Sequence record: MT446415.1
Length of the DNA stretch: 64,000 bases
Source: Escherichia virus TH44
Strand: one strand, 5' to 3'
Made by a program: the position numbers and the translations under genes. Shown here piece by piece: positions 9,402-34,595 of the stretch (position 1 is the stretch's first letter; each line of letters starts with the position of its first letter). A model generated the notes under the pieces. The model ran no database searches. It had not been told where the DNA came from and saw only the letters and a program-made list of their open reading frames with translations.

Positions 9402-10092
<691 letters not shown>

Positions 10093-22790: not shown

Positions 22791-23023
22791 GTATTGCAAT
22801 TTATATTAAATCCGAGTCATGTGATTCTTATCTGTATTCCTATGACACCGGAACATCAGAAGAGAAAATCAAAGAAGATTTAGAAAGTGATTTGGATATG
22901 TTCTGCCCAATTTCCGATTATATGGTCCAAATATCTGATAGTGAAAGTCCGTCAACAGAAACACGCGTTGAAATTATTATGGCCGAAATCTTTAAAAAAT
23001 CTTGGGAACGTGATGATGAGTAA
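22787..23023 (+). CDS. acidic small protein
   Basis: 78 aa ORF overlapping nudE start. Confidence 0.5.
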   Translation: MSIAIYIKSESCDSYLYSYDTGTSEEKIKEDLESDLDMFCPISDYMVQISDSESPSTETRVEIIMAEIFKKSWERDDE

Positions 23024-23468
23024 GAAAGTGAAGGAATTATCTGCTGGCATTATTTTCATGACCGAAGATAAAGAGTTATTCATGGGTCGTGTGACTGGTT
23101 CTCGTAAACCAGGTATGCCTGCGCACAAATGGGACATCCCTAAGGGTCATGTTGAAGCTGGCGAATCACCGATTGAAGCTGCTATCCGTGAAACCGAAGA
23201 AGAAACTGGGTTTACCCAATACGACCCGGCATTCTTAAAAGACCTCGGTGAATTCCGTTATTCAGATAATAAAAACCTTCACCTGTTTTTATATACGGTT
23301 CCGGTTGAGCATGAACAATTCAGACATAGTAAATGCTCTGCATATCATACCTTCCCGGATGGTAGTACGGTCCCAGAGTTCGATGCATTTGCTCTGATTA
23401 AACCGAGCCAATGGCAGTATGTGATGGGCAAATCGATGTACAAGGTAATGACTCAAATTTTCGGATAA
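23013..23468 (+). CDS. nudE: Nudix hydrolase NudE
   Basis: 151 aa; Nudix box GHVEAGESPIEAAIRETEEETG; directly upstream of e as T4 e.1/nudE. Confidence 0.85.
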   Translation: MMSKKVKELSAGIIFMTEDKELFMGRVTGSRKPGMPAHKWDIPKGHVEAGESPIEAAIRETEEETGFTQYDPAFLKDLGEFRYSDNKNLHLFLYTVPVEHEQFRHSKCSAYHTFPDGSTVPEFDAFALIKPSQWQYVMGKSMYKVMTQIFG

Positions 23469-25777: not shown

Positions 25778-26323
25778 ATGAAAACGTTTTTAACCGGTAG
25801 TTATCTATCCCTGATGAATGCTTTTGCAAACCATTCTGATGCTAGAGTAGAACACATTTGTAATAGTGGGTTTTATGTACCCGATTCGCAAACCTTGTTT
25901 AAAGAATGTTGCACCTTAAAACTTGATGGTGGGCGCCAATCTGGTAAAACTAAAGCAGTATCCATTTTTGCTACGGAATGGTTAGCTGATGGCGGCTCTA
26001 TTGTTATTTTGTCTAATAACACGGCATATGCTAATGTTTCGGCTACTGCAATCCGAAAGGAATATTTTAATAACCATACAGAAAGTATTAAGCACCGCTT
26101 GTACACTGATTCTGTTCGTAGTTTTATTGGTAACACTGCATGTAAATTCCGTGGATTATCACTTTCACGGGTTCTGTATATAATTGATGAGCCTGTTAAA
26201 ACACCTGATATGGATAAGATTTATGATGCCCACATAAAGGTTGTGCATTATTGCTGCCGTGCATCATGTGAAGAAACCAATCAAACCACACGCCCTCTGT
26301 TCTTTGTGATAGGAATGCAATGA
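25778..26323 (+). CDS. small P-loop NTPase-like protein
   Basis: Walker A-like GGRQSGKT and Walker B-like LYIIDEP. Confidence 0.55.
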   Translation: MKTFLTGSYLSLMNAFANHSDARVEHICNSGFYVPDSQTLFKECCTLKLDGGRQSGKTKAVSIFATEWLADGGSIVILSNNTAYANVSATAIRKEYFNNHTESIKHRLYTDSVRSFIGNTACKFRGLSLSRVLYIIDEPVKTPDMDKIYDAHIKVVHYCCRASCEETNQTTRPLFFVIGMQ

Positions 26324-26619
26324 TGACCCATGAAGAGCTTTTTGACCAAATCTATTTTATTCCAAAGGTTAGGTCAGAAGATTTCGTAAAGAATTTTGAA
26401 ATCTTTAATAAAGCAAATTTCTTTGAGTATGTGTTTTTGTCTGGGCCTTTTAATGGGTCCAGATTTCGTTGCACTGCTCCGAGTATTCGCTTGATGAAGT
26501 TGGTTCCTTACTTTACTCTGGAATTTATTTCTGGACCGTGTAAGGGTATTATCACTCGTAGCCTCCTGACCTATGACCAGGATGTGCGATTAATTAGTGA
26601 CTGGAAAAAATATGTCTAA
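26320..26619 (+). CDS. hypothetical protein
   Basis: 99 aa, overlapping start/stop with neighbours. Confidence 0.55.
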   Translation: MMTHEELFDQIYFIPKVRSEDFVKNFEIFNKANFFEYVFLSGPFNGSRFRCTAPSIRLMKLVPYFTLEFISGPCKGIITRSLLTYDQDVRLISDWKKYV

Positions 26620-26826
26620 ATTGACTATTGAAGGTTCTGATGCAGCCCTGAAAAGATTTGTTGAATGGTTTAATGGCCCAGGTGAACAAGACTTTCTGGA
26701 AGTCTGGAACGGTGGACAGTGGAATGGTAAAGAAATAGTTTACCCAACTACCTATATCTCCGTGCAAGGTTGGACTGAAGGCCTTCGTTTGGTAGAATAT
26801 GATATCGCAACTGGCGAGGAAGTGAA

Positions 26827-26830
<4 letters not shown>
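26612..26830 (+). CDS. hypothetical protein
   Basis: Internal ATG of track ORF 26597. Confidence 0.5.
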
Positions 26831-27409
<579 letters not shown>

Positions 27410-27410
<1 letters not shown>

Positions 27411-27439
27411 TGTACAAGCAGGTTGAAATGAGTTATGAT
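27410..27439 (+). promoter_or_regulatory. early-promoter cassette (gtgtac-N18-tatgat)
   Basis: Leader tatcccatcaaacaaaaggagataatcATG. Confidence 0.5.
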
Positions 27440-27466
27440 TATCCCATCAAACAAAAGGAGATAATC

Positions 27467-27925
27467 ATGACTACTATCGATTCAAGTGTTTACATTCGCC
27501 GCAATAAACTTCGTCGCATTTTTGAAACGGAGTTCCTCAAAATTAATAATGCTATCAACAAGGCTTGTAAAGAAGCAGGCCTTGAAGCATTCTTCATTAA
27601 GTACAGTCCACACCTGTTGGACCGTGCAATCCAACGTGAAATTGATGAACAATATGTTTTTGACTTGTTTGGAAAAATCACACCACATGTAAAAGAAATC
27701 GTTGAATTCCTGGAGATGAAACCACTCCCGGAAGTTGAAGCACAAATTGACCCGAATGTGAACTATCGTCCACTTCGTCTGGAAATCACAGACAAGAACC
27801 TGTGGTTAGGAATGACAGTTAACCCAGCTCTTCCTGGGAAGTCTCCGACCATGTGTTGTCGTATGGCGTTTGTTAACTCTAATCGTCTGGAAGGAAAAAT
27901 TAGCACAAAAGTGATTTATATCTAA
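27467..27925 (+). CDS. hypothetical protein
   Basis: 152 aa from ATG after aaggag. Confidence 0.6.
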   Translation: MTTIDSSVYIRRNKLRRIFETEFLKINNAINKACKEAGLEAFFIKYSPHLLDRAIQREIDEQYVFDLFGKITPHVKEIVEFLEMKPLPEVEAQIDPNVNYRPLRLEITDKNLWLGMTVNPALPGKSPTMCCRMAFVNSNRLEGKISTKVIYI

Positions 27926-27935
27926 TGGGGAATTC

Positions 27936-28478
27936 ATGAAAAAAGTAATCGCCACCTTACTATTGACAGTTAGTATGTCTGCCCATAGCGTAGAGCCTAC
28001 TTTCAGTAATGAACAAATGGGGAACCTCCAATATGCTTATGCGTTTGGAGAACAGTTCCAGAAAAATGGTAAGTACAAAGAAAATCCGCACCAACATAAT
28101 GGTTTGGGATATATCATGGCTGGTTTAGCCTGGCAGGAAAGTTCTGCTGGGATTAATACTGGATTAAATAAAGATAAGCATCATGCATATGGTATATTCC
28201 AAAATTATCTTCCAACCGTGCGCGAACGCGTGAAACAGGTTGGGTGGACAATGACAGATAAAGAAATAATCAAGATGATAAGCAAGAGAGAGAACAGTGC
28301 ACGCTGGGCTTATATTGAGCTTTCATACTGGTTGAATATTCATAAGGGGGATATAAGGAAAACACTATCATCATATAACGCAGGGTGGAATGTGAAAGCT
28401 GGTAATACGTATGCTTCACAGGTCCTAGAAAAAGCTAACTACTTAAAATCACGAGGCCTATTAAAAACGGTGGATTAA
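27936..28478 (+). CDS. secreted lytic-transglycosylase-like (SLT-domain) protein
   Basis: N-terminal signal peptide MKKVIATLLLTVSMSAHS; motifs AWQESSAG, GIFQ and SSYNAGWN resemble SLT-domain motifs. Confidence 0.6.
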   Translation: MKKVIATLLLTVSMSAHSVEPTFSNEQMGNLQYAYAFGEQFQKNGKYKENPHQHNGLGYIMAGLAWQESSAGINTGLNKDKHHAYGIFQNYLPTVRERVKQVGWTMTDKEIIKMISKRENSARWAYIELSYWLNIHKGDIRKTLSSYNAGWNVKAGNTYASQVLEKANYLKSRGLLKTVD

Positions 28479-28480
28479 AA

Positions 28481-28840
28481 ATGGTAAGAGTTATCACTTT
28501 AGCCATAGGGTTAGTATTCAGCACGGGAGGAATAGCTTCAGTACAGAGCGACGACAACAACAGCATCATAGAATATGCAACGAGGACGGCTAAAGATTAT
28601 TGCGCAGCAAGCAATGTGGATTGTGTAATCCAGTTCAGTGCCAAGCTCACCGCAGCCTATAAAGATGGCCAAAATGATGTTGAACATACGCTTTTGAAAA
28701 AGAATGTATTATCCAACAAATATGAAAAGAAACTATTTGAAATGGATTGCATTCTGTCAAGTGCAAAATATAAGGCGGCCTGCACCAGTATGGTTGACAG
28801 GTTAGTGGATTCATATAATAGAGGATTGAACTCTAAATGA
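28481..28840 (+). CDS. secreted small Cys-containing protein
   Basis: Signal-peptide-like N-terminus MVRVITLAIGLVFSTGGIASVQS; four Cys. Confidence 0.55.
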   Translation: MVRVITLAIGLVFSTGGIASVQSDDNNSIIEYATRTAKDYCAASNVDCVIQFSAKLTAAYKDGQNDVEHTLLKKNVLSNKYEKKLFEMDCILSSAKYKAACTSMVDRLVDSYNRGLNSK

Positions 28841-29310
28841 TTACCCAGTATATTAAGGGCGATATCGTCGCCCTCTTTCTTCAAGGCAATATTATTGCAC
28901 ATGGTTGTAACTGCTTTCACACAATGGGTTCTGGCGTAGCTGGGCAGCTGGCGAAGGCTTATCCAAAAGTTTTAGAAATAGATAAAACCACTACTGAATA
29001 CGGTTCTCGTGATAAATTAGGCGATATGTCTATTGTTTTTAAACATAAGACTACAGGTTTTGGCATGTGCTATAACTTGTATACGCAATACGAACCAGGC
29101 CCTAATCTTGATTATGGTGCTTTAGTAAATTGTATGATAGAATTAAATCTACAAGCAGAAACCCTTTTGTTTAAACCGGTAATTTATATTCCTCGTATTG
29201 GTTGCGGTATTGCAGGCGGAGATTGGGATAAGGTTTCTAAATTAATCGACATGTTTACTCCTGACATTGATTTAATAGTGGTGGATTATGAGCCAAGCCC
29301 GAATTCTTAA
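28837..29310 (+). CDS. macro-domain-like protein (putative ADP-ribose binding/hydrolase)
   Basis: Motifs HGCNCFHTMGSGVAGQ and PRIGCGIAGGDW resemble the two glycine-rich signatures of macrodomains. Confidence 0.6.
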   Translation: MITQYIKGDIVALFLQGNIIAHGCNCFHTMGSGVAGQLAKAYPKVLEIDKTTTEYGSRDKLGDMSIVFKHKTTGFGMCYNLYTQYEPGPNLDYGALVNCMIELNLQAETLLFKPVIYIPRIGCGIAGGDWDKVSKLIDMFTPDIDLIVVDYEPSPNS

Positions 29311-29494
29311 AACGGCCAAATGTGAAAAATGTGAATGGCCAGTAATCGCAGCTTTGTGCAACGATGAAATGAATTGCGAATATGATTACTGGTGGTACTG
29401 TTCTAATAAAGGATGTTCTAATCATAAGGGTGAAGGTTTTCATTCTGGTTATTGCGAACATCCTAAATTTGTGCGATATGGGGAACCGAAATGA
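29288..29494 (+). CDS. Cys-rich small protein (zinc-binding-like)
   Basis: 68 aa with 9 Cys incl. CEKCEW, CSNKGC. Confidence 0.5.
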   Translation: MSQARILKTAKCEKCEWPVIAALCNDEMNCEYDYWWYCSNKGCSNHKGEGFHSGYCEHPKFVRYGEPK

Positions 29495-29676
29495 GTTTAA
29501 GCATTAGTCAGAAAAGTAGATTATTTGAGCTTATCCATGAGCTTTTGGATGAGCATACGGAAGCAAACGCCTTTTATGATGAATACGGTCCAATAGATGC
29601 CGAACATCAGGAAGAATTTGCCAATCGATTTGATGCGAAAGAAAACGAATTAATAGCTTATGTGAATACGCTTTAA
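29491..29676 (+). CDS. acidic small protein
   Basis: 61 aa. Confidence 0.5.
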   Translation: MSLSISQKSRLFELIHELLDEHTEANAFYDEYGPIDAEHQEEFANRFDAKENELIAYVNTL

Positions 29677-29685
29677 GAAGGTGAT

Positions 29686-30258
29686 ATGGCGAGTTTAATT
29701 TATCATTACGCAGCAATGAATGCAGGCAAAACAGCTTCATTGCTGACTGCAGCTTATTCCTATAAAGAGCGTGGAATGAGTGTGCTTTTGCTAAAACCTG
29801 TTATTGATAATCGGGACTCGGAAGGCGAAATTAAATCACGCATCGGTATTAGCCAGGAAGCAAACCTGGTGACGGCCGACATGAACCTGTTTGAATTCTA
29901 TAAATGGGCCGAGTCTCAAAAGGATATCCATTGTGTCCTGGTCGATGAAGCTCAATTTTTGTTACCAGAGCAAATTGACCAGTTAGCTCAAGTGGTTGAT
30001 AATTACAATATCCCCGTTATGTGTTACGGGTTAAGAACAGATTTTCGGGGCCAATTATTTCCCGGTTCGGCTAGACTTCTGGCTATTTCGGATAAACTGG
30101 TTGAATTAAAGGGCGTCTGTCATTGCGGTCGGAAAGCAACCATGACCGCTCGAGTAATCGACGGTGCTGCTGTAAAGGACGGCGAGCAAGTATTGGTCGG
30201 TGGGAATGAATCGTACGTATCTTTATGCAGAAAACATTGGCTCGAATTGACAAGCTGA
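29686..30258 (+). CDS. tk: thymidine kinase
   Basis: 190 aa; MASLIYHYAAMNAGKTASLL...VDEAQF...CHCGRKATMTAR...LCRKHW, very close to T4 Tk. Confidence 0.95.
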   Translation: MASLIYHYAAMNAGKTASLLTAAYSYKERGMSVLLLKPVIDNRDSEGEIKSRIGISQEANLVTADMNLFEFYKWAESQKDIHCVLVDEAQFLLPEQIDQLAQVVDNYNIPVMCYGLRTDFRGQLFPGSARLLAISDKLVELKGVCHCGRKATMTARVIDGAAVKDGEQVLVGGNESYVSLCRKHWLELTS

Positions 30259-30265
30259 GGTTCGC

Positions 30266-30541
30266 ATGGTATACAAGGTTTGGACGTATATCTCTATTTT
30301 GATATTCCTGGTTTTGGTTTTTGTTCCGATGCAACAAGACCAGGAAAGGTATGAGCGCGAAGTTGAAATTGTTGCAAGTACCTATCACTCGTTCAACAAA
30401 GAGTGCCCCAATAAAAACGGAATAAGCCTGCAACAAGCATACTATTTGTCAACGGTCACCAGCCCAAAACAACGGGTCTGGGTTGAACGTAATTTTGCAA
30501 GTTTATTTTCAGAGTACTGCTTTAATTTTAAACGTCTATAA
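30266..30541 (+). CDS. membrane-anchored small protein
   Basis: N-terminal TM helix. Confidence 0.55.
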   Translation: MVYKVWTYISILIFLVLVFVPMQQDQERYEREVEIVASTYHSFNKECPNKNGISLQQAYYLSTVTSPKQRVWVERNFASLFSEYCFNFKRL

Positions 30542-30613
30542 ATACAGTTACTAACTAGTATTCCGCTATGTTAAGGCTGCAAAGCGTAATCATGACCAAC
30601 AATAGGAGTCCTT

Positions 30614-30907
30614 ATGGACCTTATTCGAGGACTTTCATTAAGTCTAATAATCCTGGGCTGTTTAGGCCCAAATCTGTCCTCTGCAACAGAGGGGAAGTTT
30701 ACCCAATATGCAGATAGTGCGATGAAGATTTATTCGCAATTCAAAGAACCAAGCGTGCACCAATCCGAACAGTTCTGGGCGTTTATCAAGACTGAATGGA
30801 ACAACAAAAGCCAATGCGAAACAGAAATCACCTGCAAAAGCGATGGTAAAGCTGCGGCGAGAGAGTACGCTAAATTAATGAAGGTAAAATTGGAAGATGA
30901 AATTTGA
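30614..30907 (+). CDS. rI: lysis-inhibition regulator RI-like protein
   Basis: 97 aa with signal-anchor-like N-terminus; ...SEQFWAFIKTEW...YAKLMKVKLEDEI resembles remembered T4 RI; next to tk. Confidence 0.6.
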   Translation: MDLIRGLSLSLIILGCLGPNLSSATEGKFTQYADSAMKIYSQFKEPSVHQSEQFWAFIKTEWNNKSQCETEITCKSDGKAAAREYAKLMKVKLEDEI

Positions 30908-31280
30908 TGATTTCGTAACGGGTCGTGGGTCTGAGGTGGATTCATATATTGGGTGGCTATTAGTCTCTTTGGCTTATTTTAAGTCTGCTCATCTTGAAAC
31001 CAAAAGTTATGCCCGCCATAAAGCTTATGATTTCTACTTCACAGAAATCCAGGGTCCACTCGACCAGTTCAGTGAGCAATGGTTAGGTTACAGCGGGAAA
31101 CAATACAAAGCTGCATTACCGTCCGCCTCGGACTTGCCGAAAGATACAATTTTGTTTTTAGATGAAATGATTAAAAGCTCGGAAAGAGTCTATAAAGTTG
31201 TACCCAAGGCTATTCAATCGACTCTGGACGATATCGTTGGAGTTTTCTTTCAGACTAAGTATCTGTTAACACTAGAGTAA
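30897..31280 (+). CDS. hypothetical protein
   Basis: 127 aa. Confidence 0.55.
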   Translation: MKFDDFVTGRGSEVDSYIGWLLVSLAYFKSAHLETKSYARHKAYDFYFTEIQGPLDQFSEQWLGYSGKQYKAALPSASDLPKDTILFLDEMIKSSERVYKVVPKAIQSTLDDIVGVFFQTKYLLTLE

Positions 31281-31286
31281 TTCAAA

Positions 31287-31313
31287 AGGTCTGCCTTCGG
31301 GTGGACCTTTTTT
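31287..31313 (+). terminator. rho-independent terminator with UUCG tetraloop
   Basis: aaggtctgcc-ttcg-ggtggacctt then TTTTT; ~90-bp block repeated at 60581-60670. Confidence 0.75.
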
Positions 31314-31381
31314 CATTTAGGGGGTTTACAACACCATAAAAAGGGTGTACTATTATCCCATCAACTACTGAGGAGAACACA

Positions 31382-31585
31382 ATGAGAATTAAAAATATCA
31401 AGATTGATGCAGTTAATACTGGTGATGAGGTTGTTATCTATCTTAATGATTATGCAATCTTTATGGACAGTGCCACTGATGAAGAAGTGGTTGAACTCTT
31501 ACAGAAAGCTCCATTTGAACTGTGTGAAGAAGATGCTACCCATCTTTCATCAGCAATTTTCTCATTATCATATGTGGTGGAATAA
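31382..31585 (+). CDS. hypothetical protein
   Basis: 67 aa after conserved leader. Confidence 0.55.
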   Translation: MRIKNIKIDAVNTGDEVVIYLNDYAIFMDSATDEEVVELLQKAPFELCEEDATHLSSAIFSLSYVVE

Positions 31586-33135: not shown

Positions 33136-33588
33136 ATGATTATCAATGCAAACTCTTGGCACGTTAAATTACACGACCGTTTTTACGACCGTAATTCTCG
33201 ACCACACTCTCTGTGTGCTTATTTCTGGAAAATGGTTTGGGCTTGTTTTGCTTGTGCTGTTGTTGCAGGTAGTACGCTTTTTGGATTAACTGTTGCAGGG
33301 GCTGGGGTATTAGAGCATTTCTTTGTATTAAGTACTCCTGTTCTGTTGAGTCTCGGGTTTGTTTTAGGGTTGGCTACGATAGCTCTTATTATTGCGCTAT
33401 CCATTGGTTTGGCATTAGGTGCGATGAATTTACACGCATGGTATGATGCACGTATAGAAGAAAAGGAATGGCAACGTATTCTAGCCAAACGTGAAGGAAA
33501 GGAAATTAAAGAAAATATCGTCATTCAATATATCAAAGCTCGTAAATCTAAGATGTGTCCGGTAATCCATTTTGAGGCGAAGAAATGA
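33136..33588 (+). CDS. membrane protein
   Basis: 150 aa, several TM helices. Confidence 0.6.
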   Translation: MIINANSWHVKLHDRFYDRNSRPHSLCAYFWKMVWACFACAVVAGSTLFGLTVAGAGVLEHFFVLSTPVLLSLGFVLGLATIALIIALSIGLALGAMNLHAWYDARIEEKEWQRILAKREGKEIKENIVIQYIKARKSKMCPVIHFEAKK

Positions 33589-34595
33589 GAACAGTTATGA
33601 AAGGCTACTTCGGTAGCCATCTTTATGGAACAAGTACCCCGGAATCTGATGTCGATTTTAAAGAAATCTTTGTTCCGCATCCTCGTGATATTCTACTTGG
33701 GACGGCGATGAACCATACCAACCTGAATACGAATAACACGGCCACCAAAAATACAAAAGATGATGTTGACCATGAGCTTTACAGCCTGAAATATTTCTTT
33801 AAACTGGCGGCCGAAGGCGAAACCGTTGCTCTGGATATGATTCACACCCCGGCTGACCTGGTTGTCAAATCCGATTTACCGGATGTATGGAAGTTTATTC
33901 AAGACAACCGTTCGCGGTTTTATACAACTAACATGAAAGCCTATTTGGGGTATGTCCGTAAGCAAGCTTCCAAATATGGTGTTAAAGGTTCTCGTCTGGC
34001 TGCTCTGCGTGGTGTACTGGCAATCGTTAACCAGATTCCTGAACAGTGGGTCGACTATCAAGAAGGAATCCCTGATAGACTTCGTCGTACTAAGGTAGAA
34101 GATATCAAACACAGACTCCCTGAAAACGAGTTCTGTGAATGGGTATTCCATAACCATGAGAAAACAGGTCCACAAACGTTCTATACTGTTCTCGGACGTA
34201 AGTACCAAACAACGTTATCAATTACAGAGCTTAAGCAATCTCTGAATAAACTTGATGCTGAATATGGTGAACGTGCTCGTAAGGCAGAAGCCAATGAAGG
34301 TATTGACTGGAAAGCTCTGAGTCACGCTTATCGCGCAGGGTATCAATTGATGGAAATCTACCAAACAGGTGACTTGGTGTTCCCATTGCGCGAAGCCTCT
34401 ATCATTAAGCTGATTAAAGCCGGTGAATTACCATTTAAAGAAGTTCAAGAACTTCTTGAAGATACTGTTGATTTGGTTGAAGTTCTGGCTATCCAGGCTC
34501 ATAAGAACGGTATGCCTGAGAAGGTAGACATGAAGTTCTGGGACAAGTTCGTTGAAGAGGTATATCTTGACAACCACAACTCTTATTATCGATAA
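33585..34595 (+). CDS. Pol-beta-superfamily nucleotidyltransferase-like protein
   Basis: N-terminal GSHLYGTSTPESDVDF fits G[S]x9D.D nucleotidyltransferase motif; 336 aa. Confidence 0.6.
   Translation: MRTVMKGYFGSHLYGTSTPESDVDFKEIFVPHPRDILLGTAMNHTNLNTNNTATKNTKDDVDHELYSLKYFFKLAAEGETVALDMIHTPADLVVKSDLPDVWKFIQDNRSRFYTTNMKAYLGYVRKQASKYGVKGSRLAALRGVLAIVNQIPEQWVDYQEGIPDRLRRTKVEDIKHRLPENEFCEWVFHNHEKTGPQTFYTVLGRKYQTTLSITELKQSLNKLDAEYGERARKAEANEGIDWKALSHAYRAGYQLMEIYQTGDLVFPLREASIIKLIKAGELPFKEVQELLEDTVDLVEVLAIQAHKNGMPEKVDMKFWDKFVEEVYLDNHNSYYR

What the first reader, a model, noticed from the sequence alone, without database searches (positions are those of the whole stretch)
28837..29310. Macro-domain-like protein, a candidate counter to ADP-ribosylation-based host defence
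The 157-aa protein has two glycine-rich signatures, HGCNCFHTMGSGVAGQ near the N-terminus and PRIGCGIAGGDW near the C-terminus. These resemble the ADP-ribose-binding loops of macrodomains, in particular the TARG1/DarG-type subfamily as I recall it. Macrodomains bind or remove ADP-ribose; DarG reverses DarT ADP-ribosylation of DNA, and DarTG is an anti-phage system. A phage macrodomain could therefore reverse a host ADP-ribosyl modification. It is followed by a Cys-rich small protein (29288-29494) and preceded by two secreted proteins.
Basis: partly seen in the sequence, partly recalled or inferred. Interest (0 to 1): 0.7.

Follow-up and report, generated by a model that had tools for sequence, protein, structure and literature searches.

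The report
T4 Tk.4/AdfM-type phage macrodomain gene

The parts
28837..29310 (+). tk.4/adfM-type macrodomain gene (157 aa, single domain)
   Evidence: ORF scan; Pfam Macro 33.5 bits > 22; PHROG 335 E 1e-70; 58% identity, E 2e-70, to T4 Tk.4 in the same syntenic slot; AF2 pLDDT 94.9
28820..28840 (+). Translation start region: AGAGGA Shine-Dalgarno-like element (28820-28825) and an ATGA start/stop overlap with the upstream gene vs (28837-28840)
   Evidence: Read directly from the sequence. The same arrangement is seen in T4, RB3 and UPEC07. Translational coupling is inferred.
28900..28947 (+). Loop-1 motif HGCNCFHTMGSGVAGQ (residues 22-37), including invariant H22 and N25 (codon 28909-28911)
   Evidence: H22, G23, N25, C26, G33 and A35 are invariant in 73 family members and in 80 bacterial relatives. 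N25 aligns with PhiKZ AdfM N23, whose mutation reduced activity. By spacing it also corresponds to SCO6735 N27, where N27S was nearly inactive.
29086..29088 (+). Codon for Gln84 (in NLYTQ), at the position of the catalytic Lys of DarG and TARG1
   Evidence: Invariant in 73 + 80 sequences. It aligns with TARG1 K84 (profile alignment) and with the Lys of M. tuberculosis DarG 'NFPTK'. SCO6735 has Gln85 at this position and Q85A is inactive.
29191..29226 (+). Loop-2 (phosphate-binding) motif PRIGCGIAGGDW (residues 119-130)
   Evidence: P119, G122, G124 and W130 are invariant. The family consensus is G[AC]G[IL]AGGDW. It aligns with SCO6735 PRIGCGLAGGTW, BT1257 PRIGCGLAGGKW and TARG1 PRIGCGLDRLQW, so A126 sits at TARG1 D125.
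28856..28874 (+). GC-rich hairpin inside codons 7-13 (AGGGCGATATCGTCGCCCT); function unknown; it marks the left junction of allele exchange
   Evidence: Terminator-like hit. Predicted dG is -12.6 kcal/mol and the hairpin is conserved in T4, RB3 and UPEC07, but not in three more distant genera. RB3 switches from T4-like to window-like sequence just 3' of it.
29288..29494 (+). Neighbouring gene, overlapping tk.4 by 23 nt: a small Cys-rich Phage_zn_bind protein. This is context only; no functional link is shown.
   Evidence: PF23895 E 1.4e-29. It is not homologous to the T4 gene at this position (tk.3; 33% identity in a forced global alignment).

Best explanation
The gene is the orthologue of T4 tk.4 (AdfM), a stand-alone, single-domain macrodomain of the ALC1/TARG1-like class. 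It is made during infection. The most likely mechanism is as follows. When the host DarT2 toxin ADP-ribosylates thymidines in single-stranded phage DNA and so blocks replication, the macrodomain binds the ADP-ribose through its two glycine-rich loops and hydrolyses the ribose-thymine bond, restoring normal DNA. Catalysis probably follows the SCO6735 route: Gln84, held in place by Asn25, positions the distal ribose while a water molecule attacks. It probably does not follow the Lys-dependent route of DarG and TARG1. What is shown here: macrodomain identity, class, orthology with Tk.4, and conservation of the catalytic constellation. What is shown elsewhere, and only genetically and only for T4: tk.4 is required for resistance to DarTG2. 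What is inferred: that this 57-58%-identical allele does the same, and that it acts by hydrolysing ADP-ribosyl-thymidine.
Against: No Tk.4-type protein has been assayed biochemically. The T4 evidence is genetic and comes from a preprint, which itself says hydrolysis 'seems likely'. The window allele is only 57-58% identical to the tested T4 protein, and loop 2 differs (GCGIAGGDW here, GAGIGKGNW in T4). The catalytic Lys of DarG is absent, and SCO6735's DNA-positioning lysines K34 and K89 are not conserved (positions 32 and 89). The 80 closest bacterial relatives are stand-alone with no DarT2 gene within 5 kb, so the family's ancestral substrate need not be DarT-modified DNA. Homologues occur in about 5% of all phage records across many families, which may point to a role broader than countering one defence system.
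Confidence: 0.7

Rival explanations
1. Its main job is to degrade soluble ADP-ribose derivatives rather than to repair DNA. Candidates are a Poa1p-like ADP-ribose-1''-phosphate phosphatase activity, O-acetyl-ADP-ribose deacetylation, or destruction of ADP-ribose-based immune signals or toxins. This is what the 'phosphatase' label in many phage annotations implies.
Against: The only phenotype known for the orthologue is specific sensitivity to DarTG2, a DNA-modifying system. Many macrodomains show weak Appr-1''-p phosphatase activity in vitro that is not their physiological role (general knowledge of the family). SCO6735 has the same catalytic constellation and acts on DNA and protein substrates. 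This rival is not exclusive of the DNA role.
Confidence: 0.15
2. It reverses ADP-ribosylation of proteins or RNA. The modification could come from host defence transferases (for example the mRNA ADP-ribosyltransferase CmdT) or from the phage's own Alt, ModA and ModB enzymes, making it a regulator of phage-driven host modification.
For: TARG1 and SCO6735, both in the same class, remove ADP-ribose from proteins as well as from DNA. T-even phages carry their own ADP-ribosyltransferases (background).
Against: CmdTAC defends robustly against wild-type T4, which carries tk.4, so the T4 orthologue does not neutralise CmdT. In the T4 screen tk.4 was dispensable on the control host and was required only when DarTG2 was present. 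Alt and Mod modify arginine, a linkage that macrodomains of this class are not known to cleave (general knowledge, not tested here). Homologues are spread over many phage families beyond the T-even group.
Confidence: 0.08
3. It protects mainly without catalysis, by binding DarT2 or its ADP-ribosylated DNA product and blocking further damage (interaction-inhibition), acting as a toxin sponge or mimic.
For: Catalytically dead SCO6735 Q85A, DarG K80A and TARG1 K84A all inhibit DarT in vitro, and SCO6735 does so most strongly. Other phage anti-DarT factors such as AdfA act by binding the toxin.
Against: The protein lacks the C-terminal DarT-binding domain of DarG: only positions 3-149 of the 338-position DarG model match. 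The whole catalytic constellation (H22, N25, Q84, G122, G124) is invariant across phage and bacterial members, which argues for selection on enzymatic activity.
Confidence: 0.07

Closest known systems
T4 Tk.4 = AdfM (anti-DarT factor Macrodomain; bioRxiv 10.1101/2025.11.20.689424)
   Same: Same genomic slot (between vs and tk), same length (157 against 155 aa), 58% identity with E 2e-70, same invariant residues (H22, N25, Q84, G122, G124, W130), and the same single-domain architecture.
   Different: It is a diverged allele class. Loop 2 is GCGIAGGDW, the family consensus, whereas T4 has GAGIGKGNW. The window-type allele itself has not been tested against DarTG2.
Streptomyces coelicolor SCO6735 (PDB 5E3B), a stand-alone ALC1-like macrodomain that cleaves thymidine-linked ADP-ribose
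   Same: Gln at the catalytic-Lys position; H-x-x-N, Q and G-x-G residues all conserved; near-identical loop 2 (PRIGCGLAGGTW); stand-alone with no cognate DarT gene.
   Different: SCO6735's DNA-positioning lysines K34 and K89 are not conserved here. SCO6735 is a cellular protein, whereas this one is a phage counter-defence gene.
DarG antitoxin of DarTG2 (PDB 5M31, 5M3I, 7OMU)
   Different: It has Gln, not Lys, at the catalytic position. It has no C-terminal DarT-binding domain and no adjacent darT. Among ALC1-like structures, DarG is the most distant by profile score.
PhiKZ gp104, also named AdfM (Cell Rep 2026, PMC13309987)
   Same: A phage-encoded single-domain macrodomain that counters DarTG2. 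The conserved catalytic Asn (N23) aligns with N25.
   Different: It is not orthologous: BLAST finds only two short local matches (E about 1e-3). gp104 is a true DarG-type protein, matching only DarG in the PDB (E 9e-25) with the FPTK catalytic Lys. The window protein is of the BT1257/SCO6735 type.
Human TARG1/OARD1 and Bacteroides BT1257 (PDB 4J5S; 2AFC/2FG1)
   Different: TARG1 uses a K84/D125 dyad that is absent here (Q84/A126). BT1257 has no known function.

Membership tests
Macro domain (Pfam PF01661) | Profile HMM score above the curated gathering threshold, over the full domain | tested here: met
   33.5 bits against a cut-off of 22; model positions 2-117 of 118
Macro domain (Pfam PF01661) | Three-layer alpha/beta/alpha macrodomain fold with the two ADP-ribose-binding loops | tested here: met
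ALC1/TARG1-like macrodomain class (TARG1, DarG, SCO6735, Poa1p, BT1257) | Closer in structure and sequence to members of this class than to the MacroD, viral nsP3, macroH2A or PARG classes | tested here: met
T4 Tk.4 / AdfM orthologous group | Full-length sequence similarity to T4 Tk.4 | tested here: met
   58% identity over 153 aa, E 2e-70
T4 Tk.4 / AdfM orthologous group | Conserved position between vs and tk in a Tevenvirinae genome | tested here: met
   regB, vs.1, vs, tk.4..., tk in the window and in T4, RB3, SP18 and UPEC07
T4 Tk.4 / AdfM orthologous group | Required for phage resistance to DarTG2 | not testable with these tools
   Shown only for T4. It needs a deletion and plating experiment in this phage.
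DarG antitoxin (NCBIfam NF048014) | Score above the equivalog cut-off, i.e. macrodomain plus C-terminal DarT-binding domain | tested here: not met
   32.5 bits against a cut-off of 250; only model positions 3-149 of 338 match; the protein is 157 aa
DarG antitoxin (NCBIfam NF048014) | Catalytic lysine (T. aquaticus DarG K80) | tested here: not met
   Gln84 aligns with the Lys of M. tuberculosis DarG NFPTK and with TARG1 K84; Q84 is invariant in the family
DarG antitoxin (NCBIfam NF048014) | Encoded next to a darT toxin gene | tested here: not met
   No DarT2-like sequence in the window (best tblastn E 2.8), nor within 5 kb of the 80 closest bacterial relatives. A single DarT2 probe was used, so very divergent DarT genes could be missed.
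SCO6735-type (Gln-dependent) thymidine-ADPr hydrolases | Gln at the catalytic position, supported by the conserved Asn, His and loop glycines | tested here: met
   H22, N25, Q84, G122 and G124 are invariant and correspond to SCO6735 H24, N27, Q85, G126 and G128. The correspondence to SCO6735 rests on the TARG1 and DarG alignments plus the paper's stated equivalence and on residue spacing; no direct SCO6735 alignment across Q85 was obtained.
SCO6735-type (Gln-dependent) thymidine-ADPr hydrolases | Hydrolysis of ADP-ribosyl-thymidine in ssDNA | not testable with these tools
   Requires an in vitro assay
Poa1p-type ADP-ribose-1''-phosphate phosphatase | Sequence and structural similarity, including the H-x-C-N-C motif | tested here: inconclusive

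The most novel reading that the evidence does not exclude
Tk.4-type phage macrodomains are not 'orphan DarG antitoxins'. They are a separate, Gln-dependent lineage recruited from stand-alone cellular macrodomains of the BT1257/SCO6735 type, and they arrived at anti-DarT2 activity independently of the DarG-derived PhiKZ AdfM. On this reading, the two allele classes at the tk.4 locus (57% identical and exchanged between phage genera as a gene-precise cassette) differ in substrate or DarT-variant specificity, or cover additional ADP-ribose substrates, and so reflect an ongoing arms race.
Probability: 0.3. Interest if true: 0.45.

Novelty: already known. Interest (0 to 1): 0.25.

Why it matters
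DNA ADP-ribosylation by DarT toxins is a widespread anti-phage mechanism. Knowing which phages carry erasers for it helps predict host range, including for therapeutic T4-like phages. For this gene the main point has already been made for T4 (AdfM), and many database records already label the gene a macro domain protein. This window adds three modest points. The common allele in E. coli and Shigella T-even phages differs substantially from the one tested in T4. The family uses a Gln-type active site, as SCO6735 does, rather than the DarG lysine. The name 'AdfM' now covers two non-orthologous proteins. These points matter for anyone designing catalytic mutants or transferring the annotation.

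Tried and rejected
(1) The sigma-70 promoter scan of 26000-31500 was uninformative: 15 sites found against 15.6 expected, so I make no claim about timing or promoters. (2) I looked for a DarT partner in the window and next to 80 bacterial relatives and found none. (3) I looked for any recurrent neighbour of the bacterial relatives and found only within-genus (Ruegeria) housekeeping synteny. (4) I tried three times to obtain a printed residue-level alignment to SCO6735 across Gln85. Only loop 2 was printed for SCO6735. The equivalence at Gln85 rests on the TARG1 and DarG alignments, the paper's stated equivalence and residue spacing. (5) hhalign against PhiKZ gp104 aligned the Asn correctly but appears shifted by two residues around the Q/K position, so I did not use it for that residue. 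(6) I tested whether the 5' hairpin is a broadly conserved RNA element. It is confined to the E. coli T-even group, so I treat it as a local feature. (7) I considered net charge as an argument against a DNA substrate and rejected it, because the biochemically active PhiKZ AdfM is equally acidic. (8) The Poa1p structure paper is not in the library.

Full report
OBSERVATION. The ORF at 28837-29310 on the + strand exists as described. It starts with ATG, encodes 157 aa, and carries HGCNCFHTMGSGVAGQ at residues 22-37 and PRIGCGIAGGDW at residues 119-130. Its ATG overlaps the stop codon of the upstream gene (ATGA at 28837-28840), and AGAGGA lies 11 nt upstream. Its last 23 nt overlap the next ORF (29288-29494). 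The two upstream genes are homologues of T4 vs.1 and vs. Both begin with signal-peptide-like hydrophobic segments, so 'secreted' is plausible, but I did not test it.

GENOMIC IDENTITY. The window is a T4-like phage of the Tevenvirinae. The region 27400-30300 is 97-99% identical to Escherichia phage P479, Shigella phage SP18 and relatives; one of them, UPEC07, is classified in the genus Gaprivervirus. The gene order regB, vs.1, vs, this gene, small ORFs, tk matches T4, where the gene in this slot is tk.4. The protein is 58% identical to T4 Tk.4 (E 2e-70). Homologues occur in 2,766 of 50,697 phage records across many phage groups. They are annotated variously as 'phosphatase', 'macro domain protein', 'Tk.4' or 'hypothetical protein'.

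WHAT IS ALREADY KNOWN. A preprint of 20 November 2025 (HIDEN-SEQ, bioRxiv 10.1101/2025.11.20.689424) screened a T4 transposon library on a host expressing DarTG2. It found tk.4 as the single significant hit, showed that a clean tk.4 knockout makes T4 sensitive to DarTG2, noted structural similarity to M. tuberculosis DarG, and renamed the gene adfM. The authors state only that enzymatic removal of ADP-ribose from DNA 'seems likely'; no biochemistry is reported. Earlier work had shown that T4 lacking adfA and adfN remains DarTG2-resistant and predicted a further factor (PMC11825919). Independently, a 2026 Cell Reports paper gave the same name, AdfM, to PhiKZ gp104. That paper showed in vitro removal of DarT2-installed ADP-ribose from a TNTC oligonucleotide and reduced activity for an N23A mutant (PMC13309987).

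ACTIVE SITE. Across 73 phage and metagenome family members, and across the 80 closest bacterial relatives, H22, G23, N25, C26, G33, A35, D49, N80, Y82, Q84, P119, G122, G124 and W130 are invariant. In the profile alignment, the family motif NlYtQ sits on TARG1 YLITK, so Q84 takes the place of the catalytic K84, and A126 takes the place of D125 (GCGIAGG against GCGLDRL). A direct alignment to M. tuberculosis DarG places cyNlyTQ on iiNfpTK, so Q84 is also at DarG's catalytic Lys. The same substitution is described for SCO6735. That enzyme has Gln85 at this position, Q85A abolishes activity, N27S nearly abolishes it, and G128E reduces it. SCO6735 nevertheless cleaves thymidine-linked ADP-ribose on DNA and protects Streptomyces from DarT. 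The proposed mechanism is that Gln85, held by Asn27, positions the distal ribose for attack by water (PMC9411070). By spacing, SCO6735 H24, N27, Q85, G126 and G128 correspond to the invariant H22, N25, Q84, G122 and G124 here, and loop 2 is nearly identical (PRIGCGLAGGTW against PRIGCGIAGGDW). One caveat is that SCO6735's DNA-positioning lysines K34 and K89 are not conserved. Net charge is not informative, because the window protein (pI 5.03) is as acidic as the biochemically active PhiKZ AdfM (pI 5.05).

NOT A DarG, AND NOT THE PhiKZ AdfM. The protein fails three defining features of DarG. It has no catalytic Lys, no C-terminal DarT-binding domain, and no adjacent darT. In 80 bacterial loci encoding the closest relatives, the gene is a stand-alone ORF of about 150 aa. 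There is no DarT2-like sequence within 5 kb (a single-probe tblastn, so very divergent DarT genes could be missed) and no recurrent neighbour. PhiKZ gp104, by contrast, matches only DarG macrodomains in the PDB (E 9e-25 to 9e-18) and keeps FPTK with the lysine. Against the window protein it gives only two short BLAST matches (E about 1e-3) and an hhalign probability of 96.5%. Two non-orthologous macrodomain lineages therefore carry the name AdfM. The Tk.4 type looks recruited from stand-alone BT1257/SCO6735-like macrodomains rather than from a DarG antitoxin. I offer that last step as an inference, not as a demonstrated phylogeny.

MECHANISM AND RIVALS. Best explanation (confidence 0.7): the protein removes ADP-ribose from thymidines that DarT2 has modified in phage ssDNA, by an SCO6735-like, Gln/Asn-assisted hydrolysis. 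Rival 1: the main substrates are soluble ADP-ribose derivatives, as in a Poa1p-like phosphatase. The shared HxCNC motif, the survey in PMC9503650 and the lack of a transferase partner in bacteria favour this; the DarTG2-specific phenotype of the T4 orthologue argues against it as the main role. Rival 2: it reverses protein or RNA ADP-ribosylation. CmdTAC, an mRNA ADP-ribosyltransferase system, still defends robustly against wild-type T4, which carries tk.4, and tk.4 was dispensable on the control host. Rival 3: it blocks DarT2 without catalysis. Dead SCO6735 does inhibit DarT in vitro, but the invariance of the whole catalytic constellation argues for selection on enzymatic activity. These roles are not mutually exclusive.

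SIDE OBSERVATION: ALLELE EXCHANGE. T4 and RB3 are 99-100% identical in RegB, Vs.1, Vs and Tk. However, RB3 Tk.4 is only 58% identical to T4 Tk.4 and 92% identical to the window protein. A sliding-window comparison shows RB3 to be 100% T4-like until about 35 nt into tk.4. It is then 83-100% window-like over nearly all of the rest of the gene, up to about codon 152, after which it resembles neither. The window-type allele is found at the DNA level in 347 phage records, including SP18-like, JS98/VR7-like and many 165-169 kb T4-like genomes. The switch point lies just 3' of a GC-rich hairpin (28856-28874) that is conserved at the nucleotide level between the two allele classes but absent from more distant genera. 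The slot between tk.4 and tk is also variable. The window's Zn-binding ORF is not homologous to the T4 gene at that position (tk.3), and UPEC07 and RB3 carry extra small ORFs there. Gene-precise allele replacement is what one would expect for a gene under diversifying selection from host defences, but I have not tested for selection.

VERDICT. Novelty is 'already known': this is the orthologue of a gene whose counter-defence role has been reported, and many records already annotate it as a macrodomain. Three modest points remain of interest: the Gln-type active site, the non-orthology of the two 'AdfM' proteins, and the cassette-like exchange of alleles. Interest score: 0.25.

Noticed in passing
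window 28837-29310, compared with L001 (T4) and L083 (RB3): Gene-precise allele replacement. RB3 has a T4 backbone (RegB, Vs.1, Vs and Tk 99-100% identical to T4), but its Tk.4 is 58% identical to T4's and 92% identical to the window's. The switch occurs about 35 nt into the gene and the sequence reverts near codon 152. The window-type allele is present in 347 phage records across several Tevenvirinae groups.
   Followed up: yes
window 28856-28874: A GC-rich hairpin (AGGGCGATATCGTCGCCCT, about -12.6 kcal/mol) followed by a T-rich run, inside codons 7-13 of tk.4. It is conserved at the nucleotide level in T4, RB3 and UPEC07 although the proteins are only 57% identical. It is absent in Kanagawavirus, Jiaodavirus and Karamvirus homologues. 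It coincides with the left junction of the allele swap. Its function is unknown; it could be a recombination hotspot, a translational or RNA-stability element, or incidental.
   Followed up: partly
window 28481-28840 (vs) and 27936-28478 (vs.1): The Vs homologue, annotated everywhere as 'valyl-tRNA synthetase modifier' (a cytoplasmic role), starts with a signal-peptide-like segment (MVRVITLAIGLVFSTGGIAS|VQ). Vs.1 has one as well, plus a weak SLT lytic-transglycosylase match (E 0.009, below the cut-off). The HIDEN-SEQ preprint reports that T4 vs is conditionally essential in minimal medium. An exported Vs would be hard to reconcile with its textbook role. I did not test this with a signal-peptide predictor.
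   Followed up: no
window 29288-29676: The slot between tk.4 and tk is a variable cassette region. The window's first ORF there is a Phage_zn_bind protein (PF23895) that is not homologous to the T4 gene at that position (tk.3). UPEC07 has an extra 58-aa ORF there and RB3 has two extra small ORFs. Tk.2 of RB3 is also window-like (82%) rather than T4-like (54%).
   Followed up: partly
literature: A naming collision. 'AdfM' is used both for T4 Tk.4 (Gln-type, BT1257/SCO6735-like) and for PhiKZ gp104 (Lys-type, DarG-like). The two are not orthologous: BLAST finds only short local matches, and gp104 hits only DarG in the PDB at E 9e-25.
   Followed up: yes
window 9637-10092; 22887-23468; 33585-34595: Other counter-defence or nucleotide-related genes in the window: Acb1 anti-CBASS phosphodiesterase (PF23474, E 1.5e-59); a NudE-type Nudix hydrolase (PF00293), which from general knowledge of T4 NudE could consume free ADP-ribose released by the macrodomain; and an RlaP-like nucleotidyltransferase (the T4 nrdC.11 homologue, PF10127).
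   Followed up: no
loci L003-L082 (bacterial genomes): A large, phylogenetically scattered family of stand-alone bacterial macrodomains of about 150 aa (more than 500 loci matched). They share HGCNC...NxYTQ...G[AC]G[IL]AGGDW with the phage proteins at 33-45% identity. No DarT and no conserved neighbour was found. Their cellular function appears to be uncharacterised; BT1257 is a more distant solved relative, also of unknown function.
   Followed up: partly
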